This document shows positions 2,390 to 3,255 of a DNA stretch of 64,000 bases, one piece after another. The position numbers were made by a program, and so were the translations under genes. The notes beneath the pieces were generated by a model that was not told the origin of the DNA, did no database searches, and was given only the letters and a program-made list of their open reading frames with translations. Source of the DNA: a virus (Duplodnaviria > Caudoviricetes); IMG/VR virus record IMGVR_UViG_3300032050_000002; one strand, given 5' to 3'. The number at the start of each line of letters is the position of its first letter. Position 1 is the stretch's first letter.

Positions 2390-3255
2390 TTGAATTATCC
2401 ATTCAGTCCTCGATTATGAGACCTTCGGGTTGATTATGAGGGGATACTGATAAATGATAATCGGCCGTATATGGTCGTTAAATAAACTACGAAAGTAGGA
2501 TAAAGTGGGGTCACCTGTGTTAGTGATTCTGCGGCTCGGGAAACTGAGCTCGAGTATACAAGTGGGATATCATCCGACCTTTAGTACTGAGGGCAACGCT
2601 TTAGGGAAAGTGGTTTGGTGACCGAGCAATGTGGATTGTTAGGTTGAGTTCGGAAGAACAATAAGAATAACTCATAGGAATCCTGTAAAAGGTGTGGTTA
2701 TCCGACCATATTATTGCGGTTTCCAATTTAAAAGTGGACTTAAAACCGAAAGGTAAGATGGAGAACGAGTGGTGTCGCTACCGTCCTTATTAACGACCCG
2801 CCAAGGTTGTGATATGAAGTAAACTTAAAGAATGGAGATGGGGACATTTCACGGAGTAGTTTGGCATTCAGTTGTTCAAAAGATGACTGAACCTAAGGCA
2901 GACCACTACTTCGATTAATCCACGACACGTACTTAAATAAACTAAAAATTTGTTCAAAGGAAAAGTGTCTGTCAGGTATCGATGAAAGGTGACTACATAG
3001 TAATGAGTCGTTCATTGCACACGAAGACCCCAAGTCTGAATGTAATCTTACCAAAAACCTCTAGTTCCGCAAGAACGAGTTGGGGAGGCATCCTCGAAGA
3101 GAGTTGAGTAATAAGAGAGTAATTGATACCTCAAGGAGTGGTTTACCTAAATAACCGTCACTGAGGAATACTTTCCAAAAAAAAGTGGAAATGTGAGGAA
3201 CTAATAATCTCACTAAAGGTTCTCAAGTAATGGTGTATTCTCAGCCATGATTTAA
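2390..3255 (+). ncRNA. Large structured non-coding RNA, GOLLD-like (boundaries approximate)
   Basis: ~870 nt with no ORF of 60 aa or more in any frame; GC clearly above flanks; GNRA/UUCG hairpins (ctac-gaaa-gtag, gacc-ttcg-ggtt, acc-gaaa-ggt, gctc-gggaaact-gagc); directly upstream of a tRNA. Family assignment is inference from size and context. Confidence 0.7.

What the first reader, a model, noticed from the sequence alone, without database searches (positions are those of the whole stretch)
2390..3255. ~870-nt ornate non-coding RNA (GOLLD-like or a new class) between the promoter array and tRNA-fMet
Seen: no ORF of 60 aa or more on either strand, elevated GC in a very AT-rich genome, and many GNRA/UUCG hairpins and AGUA/GAA-type internal-loop strings, ending ~10 nt before a tRNA. 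Established: GOLLD RNAs are ~800 nt, were found in lake metagenomes and phages, often lie beside tRNAs, and have no known function. Inference: a GOLLD member or a new giant RNA, probably very abundant given the leader, released by RNase P cleavage of the downstream tRNA.
Basis: partly seen in the sequence, partly recalled or inferred. Interest (0 to 1): 0.85.

Follow-up and report, generated by a model that had tools for sequence, protein, structure and literature searches.

The report
GOLLD RNA in a phage stable-RNA operon
The ~860-nt non-coding stretch is a full-length member of the known phage GOLLD RNA family (RNAs that self-assemble into cages and have no known function), here expressed from an operon that copies the host's ribosomal-RNA promoters and leader.

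Summary
Window 2394-3247 has no ORF of 60 aa or more, 40-43% GC against 20-30% in most flanking DNA, and ends 18 nt before a tRNA(CAU).

It is not a new class. Rfam GOLLD (RF02032) matches 2852-3247 end to end at 317.7 bits (cut-off 150). The 5' half (2462-2851) is colinear with the 5' domain of env-38 GOLLD, whose cryo-EM structure is a 14-mer cage. A 30-nt motif from that half occurs in more than 120 IMG/VR viral contigs. In 33 non-redundant full-length relatives, 130 of 183 predicted pairs show compensatory changes.

The window is a phage (terminase, portal, major head protein, endolysin), probably of Bacteroidota.

GOLLD is the first gene of a stable-RNA operon:
- four tandem TAnnTTTG promoters;
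- hairpin plus TTCTTTGAAA units;
- GOLLD;
- an initiator-like tRNA;
- a conserved ~400-nt trailer;
- a terminator.

The last leader element (GTTCTTTGAAATATTG) is nearly identical to the element 120-140 nt upstream of 16S rRNA in 10 of 10 genomes sampled from one order (Flavobacteriales by a record title).

Six freshwater metatranscriptomes hold the stretch. None holds a 9.9-kb coding control from the same window.

Verdict: a new member of a known kind. Other first-stage readers of this scan had already noted the rRNA-like cassette and the GOLLD likeness on this same genome; I tested the rRNA-leader claim here.

The parts
1971..2303 (+). Array of four tandem promoter units (spacing 96, 86, 90 nt). 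The Bacteroidota-type -7 boxes TAnnTTTG lie at 2015-2022, 2111-2118, 2197-2204 and 2287-2294. A TTTG -33 element lies about 20 nt upstream in units 2-4.
   Evidence: direct-repeat family D1, 4 copies of 61 nt; TANNTTTGTAAA: 4 of the window's 6 matches lie here; 2-4 such promoters upstream of GOLLD in 77 of 114 related loci.
2126..2155 (+). Leader unit after promoter 2: hairpin 2126-2143 followed by boxA-like TTCTTTGAAA at 2146-2155. A second, weaker unit after promoter 3 has its hairpin at about 2214-2232 and TTCTTTGAAA at 2236-2245.
   Evidence: 7-bp hairpin at 2126-2143; exact motif positions; 6 in the window against 1.5 expected; the same promoter-hairpin-motif order in most related loci.
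2377..2393 (+). Terminal leader element GTTCTTTGAAATATTGA. This is the rrn boxA-type element, directly 5' of GOLLD.
   Evidence: exact TTCTTTGAAA 64-136 nt before the GOLLD 5' motif in 52 of 93 loci, and 1-2 mismatches in most others; cgTTCTTTGAAAATATTGGAAG 120-140 nt upstream of 16S in 10 of 10 genomes of one order.
2394..2461 (+). 5' hairpin 'P0' (ATTATCC...GATAAT), upstream of the 5' end of the env-38 construct.
   Evidence: present in the MFE fold; arms complementary in most loci, with a few compensatory variants such as AATATC/GATATT; the env-38 construct starts at the equivalent of about 2460.
2462..2851 (+). GOLLD 5' domain (the cap domain in the env-38 structure). Includes an invariant CCGAAAGG hairpin at about 2747-2754.
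   Evidence: colinear with env-38 residues 1-~420, compared by eye; the 30-nt motif at 2478-2507 occurs in more than 120 IMG/VR contigs; covariation in its stems.
2852..3247 (+). GOLLD 3' domain (the ring domain), including the A-rich variable linker at about 2912-2965, the pseudoknot, the CAAAA loop and the two GC-containing loops of the P21 region.
   Evidence: RF02032, 317.7 bits, model positions 1-416 of 416, E 4e-90; covariation; 7-bp GGCAGAC/GTCTGTC pairing across the linker, with covariation.
3248..3265 (+). 18-nt A-rich spacer between GOLLD and the tRNA.
   Evidence: Spacers of 9-30 nt are seen in related loci.
3266..3340 (+). tRNA(CAU) with encoded CCA. It is initiator-like: U1xU72 mismatch, A11:U24 and G30G31:C39C40, but A29:U41 in place of the third G:C pair.
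   Evidence: 55.8 bits; non-canonical 1:72 flagged; a tRNA(CAU) within 60 nt downstream in 26 of 77 loci, with 1:72 mismatches in most of the 14 distinct sequences: C1xA72 in three, U1xU72 in three others.
3341..3744 (+). Conserved non-coding trailer of the operon, beginning AGTGACTCC. Possibly a second structured RNA.
   Evidence: alignable in 14 distinct loci; only 20 consensus pairs, 12 with compensatory changes; no Rfam match with E below 1.
3745..3783 (+). Intrinsic terminator: GGGAGATATCG...CGATGTCTCCC followed by a run of T.
   Evidence: A GC-rich stem plus T-run lies at the same alignment position in all 14 related loci.

Best explanation
Window 2394-3247 is the gene of a full-length GOLLD RNA of the env-38 type. 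It consists of a 5' cap domain, a short A-rich linker and a 3' ring domain, preceded by an extra 5' hairpin. The gene lies in a phage, probably a large phage of Bacteroidota.

**Shown here**
- Family membership of both domains.
- Covariation-supported structure.
- Operon anatomy: four tandem host-type promoters, hairpin plus TTCTTTGAAA leader units, GOLLD, an 18-nt spacer, an initiator-like tRNA(CAU), a conserved ~400-nt trailer and an intrinsic terminator.
- Near identity of the last leader element to the element upstream of 16S rRNA in genomes of one order (Flavobacteriales by a record title).
- Presence of the stretch in freshwater metatranscriptomes.

**Inferred**
- Host RNA polymerase fires at high rate from the promoter array.
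- The boxA-like RNA recruits NusB/NusE-type factors, as in rrn operons. The long, highly structured, untranslated transcript is then made without Rho or intrinsic termination.
- RNase P cleavage at the tRNA 5' end frees the GOLLD 3' end.
- The RNA self-assembles without protein into a D7 14-mer nanocage like env-38. It keeps that RNA's domain order and the loop sequences used for inter-chain bridges.

**What the cage does is unknown.** I favour a role in taking over or buffering the host translation apparatus during infection, because of three links: the tie to an initiator-type tRNA in a third of related loci, the rRNA-like expression signals, and the published ribosome pull-down.
For: **Membership**
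- RF02032 scores 317.7 bits against a cut-off of 150, over the full model.
- The 5' half is colinear with the env-38 construct given in PMC12286853, Supplementary Table.
- The 5' motif occurs in more than 120 viral contigs.
- 130 of 183 pairs have compensatory changes, in both domains.

**Loops named as bridges in PMC12286853 and PMC12990946** are present and conserved: the CAAAA loop in the first hairpin of the 3' domain, the CGCAA loop that switches to a CG-containing loop in relatives, and the invariant GC in the neighbouring loop. I mapped these by sequence, not from the published figure.

**Context**
- Phage genes in the window.
- Promoter array; 77 of 114 related loci have two or more such promoters.
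- rrn leader identity.
- The same leader stands before a Thr-Tyr-Gly-Thr tRNA operon in a Bacteroidaceae MAG.

**RNA presence:** six metatranscriptome runs from six studies hold 47-70% of the sampled words, and none appears among holders of a 9.9-kb coding control.

**tRNA linkage:** a tRNA(CAU) follows within 60 nt in 26 of 77 loci.
Against: - No direct evidence here for transcript ends, for Nus-factor binding, for RNase P processing or for oligomerisation of this particular sequence.
- The metatranscriptome evidence rests on assembled contigs and sampled words. Read laying failed. Near-identical GOLLDs of sister phages could contribute.
- TTCTTTGAAA also occurs by chance inside coding DNA, so its role rests on position and conservation, not on the motif alone.
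- The extra 5' hairpin and the 47-nt-shorter body (786 against 833 nt) could change the stoichiometry. Published GOLLDs form 10-, 12- or 14-mers depending on which helices are present (PMC12990946).
- The biological function is speculative.
Confidence: 0.9

Rival explanations
1. A new class of giant ornate RNA, unrelated to GOLLD or only superficially like it.
For: The Rfam model covers only 2852-3247. The 5' 460 nt have no Rfam match. An extra 5' hairpin (2394-2461) lies outside the published env-38 construct.
Against: - The Rfam GOLLD model is known to represent only the conserved 3' domain.
- The 5' half is colinear with the env-38 5' domain, with long near-identical blocks.
- The 5' half travels with the GOLLD 3' domain in the related loci examined.
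Confidence: 0.02
2. GOLLD here is mainly a cis-acting processing or 'storage' scaffold for the downstream tRNA. It would hold the initiator-like tRNA precursor inside or beside the cage and control its maturation, rather than acting as a free cage.
For: A tRNA(CAU) follows within 60 nt in 26 of 77 loci. Published discussion covers tRNAs embedded in the GOLLD linker and an 'inhibited storage' idea (PMC12990946; PMC12286853).
Against: - 49 of 77 related loci have no tRNA within 60 nt downstream, so the tRNA is not obligatory.
- Here the tRNA lies outside the 3' end and not in the internal linker.
- The env-38 cage assembles without any tRNA.
Confidence: 0.2
3. The TTCTTTGAAA elements are not antitermination sites. 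They would be DNA-level promoter elements (for example upstream or activator sites of the next promoter) or RNase processing sites, and their likeness to the rrn leader would reflect shared promoter architecture only.
For: In the array each element lies about 50-60 nt upstream of the next promoter's -7 box. The motif contains TTTG, the core of both Bacteroidota promoter boxes. The Flavobacteriales rrn P1 unit is likewise followed by the motif before P2.
Against: - The best-conserved copy is the last one. It has no promoter after it and sits directly before the structural RNA, both in GOLLD loci and in 10 of 10 16S leaders.
- Its order (hairpin, then motif) and its sequence resemble rrn boxB-boxA leaders. 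The likeness to E. coli GCUCUUUAACAA is from my own knowledge, not tested here.
Confidence: 0.2
4. The stretch is a fragment of rRNA, a self-splicing intron, RNase P RNA or a protein gene read in another code.
For: High GC relative to the genome and dense structure are also typical of those RNAs.
Against: - No Rfam family other than GOLLD and tRNA matches at E below 0.6 in 1900-3500.
- No long ORF.
- Substitutions follow base-pairing, not codon periodicity.
Confidence: 0.01

Closest known systems
GOLLD RNA, env-38 type (Rfam RF02032; cryo-EM structure PDB 9MEE, Kretsch et al., Nature 2025, PMC12286853)
   Same: - Same 3' domain: full-length covariance-model match.
- Same 5' domain order, with long near-identical blocks.
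- A short unstructured A-rich linker between the domains.
- The same conserved loops that form inter-chain bridges.
- Phage origin in an aquatic metagenome.
- A tRNA-Met gene next to it.
   Different: - The body is about 786 nt against 833 nt.
- An extra conserved 5' hairpin (2394-2461) lies before the point where the env-38 construct starts.
- The tRNA is downstream here and upstream in env-38.
- Oligomeric state was not tested.
Streptococcus agalactiae and Lactobacillales prophage GOLLD (12-mer; PDB 9L0R, as summarised in PMC12990946)
   Same: Same family and same 3' domain core.
   Different: Sag GOLLD lacks P9, P11a-c and P21b, and forms 10- or 12-mers. The window RNA has two hairpins in the P21 region and an env-38-like 5' domain, so it is nearer the 14-mer type by sequence.
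Bacterial rrn operon leaders (tandem promoters P1/P2, boxB hairpin, boxA; NusB/NusE/NusA/NusG/SuhB antitermination)
   Same: - Tandem strong promoters, then a hairpin, then a boxA-like element, before a long untranslated structured RNA with a tRNA in the same transcript.
- The last element is nearly identical over 16-17 nt to the 16S leader element of genomes sampled from one order (Flavobacteriales by a record title).
   Different: - Four promoters instead of two.
- The hairpin-motif unit is repeated after promoters 2-4.
- The product is a phage RNA.
- Factor binding was not tested.
ROOL RNA (phage and prophage nanocage RNA, 8-mer)
   Same: Phage-encoded, near tRNAs, highly expressed, forms an RNA-only cage, function unknown.
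   Different: Unrelated sequence and secondary structure. No Rfam ROOL hit in the window.

Membership tests
GOLLD RNA (RF02032) | Covariance-model match to the conserved 3' domain above the curated gathering score | tested here: met
   317.7 bits against 150, model positions 1-416 of 416, E 4e-90, at 2852-3247.
GOLLD RNA (RF02032) | Conserved secondary structure of the 3' domain, including the long-range pseudoknot, supported by covariation | tested here: met
   The cmscan alignment keeps all helices and the 10-bp pseudoknot. Compensatory changes occur in these helices among 33 relatives.
GOLLD RNA (RF02032) | A separate, less conserved 5' domain of about 400 nt joined by a variable linker, giving a total of about 800 nt | tested here: met
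   2462-2851 is colinear with env-38 residues 1-~420 (compared by eye). The shared motif occurs in more than 120 viral contigs. Its stems covary. The A-rich linker lies at about 2912-2965.
GOLLD RNA (RF02032) | Phage or prophage location, commonly beside tRNA genes | tested here: met
   Terminase, portal, major head protein and endolysin in the window. The tRNA lies 18 nt downstream.
GOLLD RNA (RF02032) | Loop sequences used for inter-chain bridges in the solved cages (A-rich L14, palindromic GC/CG in L21a, conserved L21b) | tested here: met
   A CAAAA loop, a CGCAA loop (a CG-containing loop in some relatives) and an invariant GC in the next loop are seen in alignment A2. The features are named. 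Mapping to helix names is by sequence, not from the published figure.
GOLLD RNA (RF02032) | Protein-free assembly into a closed homo-oligomer (10- to 14-mer) | not testable with these tools
   Needs in vitro transcription plus mass photometry or cryo-EM.
GOLLD RNA (RF02032) | Expressed as an abundant RNA | tested here: inconclusive
   Six metatranscriptome runs hold 47-70% of the words of 2378-3760, and none holds the coding control. These are contigs only, and read laying failed.
rrn-type antitermination leader (boxB-boxA) | boxA sequence matching that of the host's own rrn leader | tested here: met
   Window 2377-2393 against the 16S leaders of 10 of 10 genomes of one order: the same 16-17 nt with one A fewer. 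The host assignment itself is inferred.
rrn-type antitermination leader (boxB-boxA) | Position: transcribed, downstream of the promoter, preceded by a hairpin, upstream of the structural RNA | tested here: met
   Order seen in the window and in most related loci. That it is transcribed is inferred from the promoter position.
rrn-type antitermination leader (boxB-boxA) | Binding of NusB/NusE and a measurable antitermination effect | not testable with these tools
   Biochemical or genetic assay needed.
Bacterial initiator tRNA (tRNA-fMet) | Mismatch at position 1:72 | tested here: met
   U1xU72, flagged non-canonical by cmscan. C1xA72 in three relatives (L018, L088, L080), and other mismatches in further relatives.
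Bacterial initiator tRNA (tRNA-fMet) | Three consecutive G:C pairs (29-31:39-41) in the anticodon stem | tested here: not met
   A29:U41, G30:C40, G31:C39, so only two G:C pairs.
Bacterial initiator tRNA (tRNA-fMet) | A11:U24 in the D stem | tested here: met
   D stem GAGA/ACUC in the cmscan alignment. That this feature defines the family is from my own knowledge.

The most novel reading that the evidence does not exclude
The whole 1.8-kb unit (1971-3783) is a phage 'pseudo-rRNA operon'. It would use the host's rrn promoters and Nus-dependent boxA antitermination to produce three stable RNAs together: the GOLLD cage, an initiator-type tRNA, and a ~400-nt trailer RNA that matches no Rfam family and is conserved in at least 14 distinct phage contigs. 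The trailer would be a new RNA class working with GOLLD, and the linkage would point to control of translation initiation as the long-sought function of GOLLD.
Probability: 0.25. Interest if true: 0.7.

Novelty: new member of a known kind. Interest (0 to 1): 0.35.

Why it matters
GOLLD is among the largest bacterial and phage non-coding RNAs. It forms a cage larger than a ribosome, and its function is still unknown.

This member adds nothing new in kind, but its setting is informative. A large clade of lake-phage GOLLDs is driven by 2-4 tandem host promoters and a leader element nearly identical to the host 16S leader. In about a third of loci an initiator-type tRNA follows. In at least 24 of the loci fetched (14 distinct sequences) a conserved trailer RNA and terminator follow.

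This gives concrete, testable hypotheses: Nus-dependent expression, co-processing by RNase P, and a link to translation initiation. It also gives defined transcript boundaries for structural work.

I found no paper in the searchable library that describes these expression signals for GOLLD. The original 2009 description could not be read, so I cannot claim priority for this observation.

Tried and rejected
- **Whole genome:** not held, so I could not count GOLLD copies or size the genome directly.
- **Megablast of 20 kb against phage records:** no match. The phage has no close relative in GenBank phages. Only two 630-640-kb uncultured phages share the GOLLD, at about 65% identity.
- **Genome-contig scan:** my hairpin-plus-motif pattern was too loose. 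Nearly all of the 120 returned loci were chance matches. Only two were informative: a 16S leader and a tRNA-operon leader.
- **TTCTTTGAAA as a specific marker of stable-RNA leaders:** rejected. Most genomic occurrences lie in coding DNA. Only position and the extended sequence are diagnostic.
- **Read laying:** Transcript ends are therefore not mapped.
- **Weinberg et al. 2009 (original GOLLD paper):** not held.
- **Consensus fold of the trailer 3341-3744:** only 20 pairs on a rough alignment, which does not establish it as a structured RNA.
- **Rfam at permissive threshold on the trailer:** only noise.
- **Formal alignment to env-38:** not done, because its sequence is available only as text in a supplement. 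The comparison was made by eye.

Full report
**1.

- The stretch 2390-3255 has no ORF of 60 aa or more on either strand. The longest are 53, 50, 41 and 41 aa.
- Its GC content is 0.40-0.43, against 0.19-0.30 in most flanking windows (up to 0.36).
- A tRNA with anticodon CAU follows at 3266-3340.
- The sequence is full of GNRA- and UUCG-type hairpins.
- As a single strand it folds better than all 20 shuffles, z = -2.7.

**2. It is a GOLLD RNA**

- Rfam's GOLLD model (RF02032) matches 2852-3247 from its first to its last position at 317.7 bits. The gathering score is 150 and E is 4e-90. All helices and the long pseudoknot are kept.
- No other family matches 1900-3500 below E 0.6, apart from the tRNA.
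- The Rfam model represents only the universally conserved 3' domain, so the 5' half had to be tested separately.
- The sequence of the env-38 GOLLD construct used for the 3.0 Å cryo-EM structure is printed in the supplement of Kretsch et al. (PMC12286853). Its 5' end corresponds to window position about 2460.
- From there the two RNAs are colinear through the whole 5' domain, with long near-identical blocks. One example is the segment around GTTGAGTTCGGAAGA.CAATAAGAATAACTCATAG.
- In most of those loci, typical GOLLD 3' motifs follow at the expected distance.
- The two nearest GenBank phage records are uncultured phages of 635 and 642 kb. They carry the same two-domain RNA with Rfam scores of 287 and 275 bits.
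- I aligned 33 non-redundant full-length copies (A2). RNAalifold predicted 183 pairs, of which 130 show compensatory double changes, spread over both domains.

The 'new class' alternative is therefore refuted. The RNA is an env-38-type GOLLD.

**3. Details of the RNA**

- The body equivalent to env-38 is 2462-3247, about 786 nt against 833 nt.
- Before it lies an extra hairpin, 2394-2461, closed by ATTATC/GATAAT.
  - It is present in most relatives but has only a few compensatory variants.
  - It lies outside the published construct.
- The inter-domain linker (about 2912-2965) is short, A-rich and variable, and holds no tRNA.
- A 7-bp pairing across the linker (GGCAGAC with GTCTGTC) covaries strongly.
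- Loop sequences that the structural papers name as inter-chain contacts are present and conserved:
  - an A-rich loop (CAAAA) in the first hairpin of the 3' domain;
  - a loop with a central GC that switches to CG in some relatives;
  - a neighbouring loop with an invariant GC.
- My assignment of these loops to the published helix names is by sequence only.
- By sequence this RNA should form a closed homo-oligomer, most likely the 14-mer. This is an inference. Published GOLLDs form 10-, 12- or 14-mers depending on which helices they carry.

**4. Genomic setting**

- The window encodes a terminase large subunit, portal, major head protein and an endolysin, plus a tmRNA. It is therefore a phage.
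- Neighbouring genes carry a type IX secretion C-terminal domain and a PKD-like domain. The promoters are of the Bacteroidota TTTG/TAnnTTTG type. Both point to a Bacteroidota host.
- No whole genome is held. The scan's index lists nine windows of notes on one piece, which suggests a large genome.

**5. How it is expressed**

*Promoter array and leader units*
- Upstream of GOLLD lie four tandem copies of a ~61-nt promoter unit, spaced 96, 86 and 90 nt apart. Their -7 boxes are at 2015, 2111, 2197 and 2287.
- Promoters 2 and 3 are each followed by a small hairpin and the 10-mer TTCTTTGAAA. Promoter 4 is followed by a longer leader and a third copy of the 10-mer at 2378-2387, directly before GOLLD.
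- The 10-mer occurs six times in the window against 1.5 expected.

*The architecture is general*
- In 52 of 93 related loci the exact 10-mer lies 64-136 nt before the 5' motif. Most others differ by one or two bases.
- The usual order is -7 box, short hairpin, 10-mer, 5-10 nt, then ATTATCC, the start of GOLLD.
- 77 of 114 loci have two or more tandem promoters, and 45 have three or more.

*Test of the resemblance to rRNA leaders*
- In a Flavobacteriales MAG from a lake, the 16S gene is preceded by two TAnnTTTG promoters. The first is followed by a hairpin and GTTCTTTGAAG. The second has GTTCTTTGAAAATATTG 140 nt before the 16S 5' end.
- In all 10 genomes of that order in which a 16S 5' end was recovered, the same element (cgTTCTTTGAAAATATTGGAAG) lies 120-140 nt upstream of 16S, behind two such promoters.
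- The window reads GTTCTTTGAAATATTGA. This is the same element with one A fewer.
- A Bacteroidaceae MAG uses promoter, hairpin and GTTCTTTGAAA in front of a Thr-Tyr-Gly-Thr tRNA operon.
- The motif alone is not specific, since most genomic copies are in coding DNA. Its position and extended sequence are.

*Reading*
- I read the element as the Bacteroidota counterpart of rrn boxA. Its likeness to the E. coli boxA sequence is from my own knowledge.
- I infer that it makes the long untranslated transcript resistant to termination. Factor binding is untested.
- Other first-stage readers of this scan had already proposed this cassette (e1-5339403, e1-5339394). I reached the same idea before consulting them. 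The rrn comparison above is the test.

**6. The rest of the operon**

- An 18-nt spacer separates GOLLD from the tRNA.
- The tRNA has a U1xU72 mismatch, A11:U24 and an encoded CCA. Its anticodon stem has only two of the three canonical G:C pairs.
- In 26 of 77 related loci a tRNA(CAU) follows GOLLD within 60 nt. Of the 14 distinct sequences, three have the classical C1xA72 mismatch, three others have U1xU72, and many share the AGG/CCU anticodon stem.
- It is therefore initiator-like, but not proven to be tRNA-fMet.
- After the tRNA comes a ~400-nt non-coding trailer (3341-3744). It is alignable in 14 distinct loci and ends everywhere in a clear intrinsic terminator, at 3745-3783 in the window.
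- The trailer matches no Rfam family. On a rough alignment it gave only 20 consensus pairs.
- Whether the trailer is a structured RNA in its own right is open. Another reader flagged it (e1-5339396).
- The ATG at 3768 that opens the listed 215-aa ORF lies inside the terminator stem. The real start of that gene is probably further downstream.

**7. Expression evidence**

- Six freshwater metatranscriptome runs from six studies hold 47-70% of the sampled words of 2378-3760.
- For a 9.9-kb coding control from the same window (10500-20400), the DNA runs are found again but no RNA run is among the holders.
- This fits an abundant stable RNA rather than DNA carry-over.
Transcript ends are not known.

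**8. Verdict**

- This is a new member of a known, structurally solved family, and one of a very large clade in lake phages. Novelty is low.
- What the locus adds is context. The rRNA-mimicking promoter and leader, the recurrent link to an initiator-type tRNA, and the conserved trailer turn the open question of GOLLD function into specific experiments.
- I found no description of these signals for GOLLD in the searchable literature. The original 2009 paper was not available.

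Noticed in passing
window 3341-3783: A ~400-nt non-coding trailer after the tRNA. It begins AGTGACTCC, has conserved blocks (for example TGTGG...CCACA and CTCACGATAGAAGTT), and ends in a strong intrinsic terminator. It is alignable in 14 distinct IMG/VR loci and has no Rfam match. It may be a second, undescribed RNA co-transcribed with GOLLD.
   Followed up: partly
window 3266-3340 and loci L018, L088, L080, L032, L034, L090: The tRNA(CAU) that follows GOLLD in 26 of 77 loci usually has a 1:72 mismatch (C1xA72, U1xU72 or A1xA72) and an AGG/CCU anticodon stem. 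It looks like an initiator tRNA with two instead of three G:C pairs.
   Followed up: partly
window 3768-3812: The ATG at 3768 that opens the 215-aa ORF lies inside the 3' arm of the operon terminator. The gene more likely starts at a downstream ATG near 3813.
   Followed up: no
window 5964-6350 (-): A phage-encoded tmRNA (Rfam 92.4 bits) lies 2.6 kb from GOLLD, next to an M20/M28-type peptidase and a ClpB/ClpC-like double AAA ATPase (8403-10439).
   Followed up: no
L250 (Bacteroidaceae MAG, G004:C66): A host Thr-Tyr-Gly-Thr tRNA operon is preceded by TAtcTTTG, a hairpin and GTTCTTTGAAA. The hairpin-plus-motif leader therefore seems to mark stable-RNA operons in Bacteroidota generally, not only rRNA.
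   Followed up: partly
L001 (LR745206.1) 2394-2481 and L002 (LR756502.1) 3830-3903: In the two 630-640-kb uncultured phages, GOLLD is flanked by tRNA-like genes that ARAGORN reports with two-base 'anticodons' (gt, tt). These are tRNAs with odd anticodon loops, or mis-called.
   Followed up: no
L030, L078, L005, L067 (IMG/VR): In one sub-clade a second, degenerate TTGTTTGAAA plus promoter unit precedes the usual leader, and GOLLD sits inside a tRNA array (Met, Thr, Gly upstream; Lys, Val, Tyr downstream in L005).
   Followed up: no
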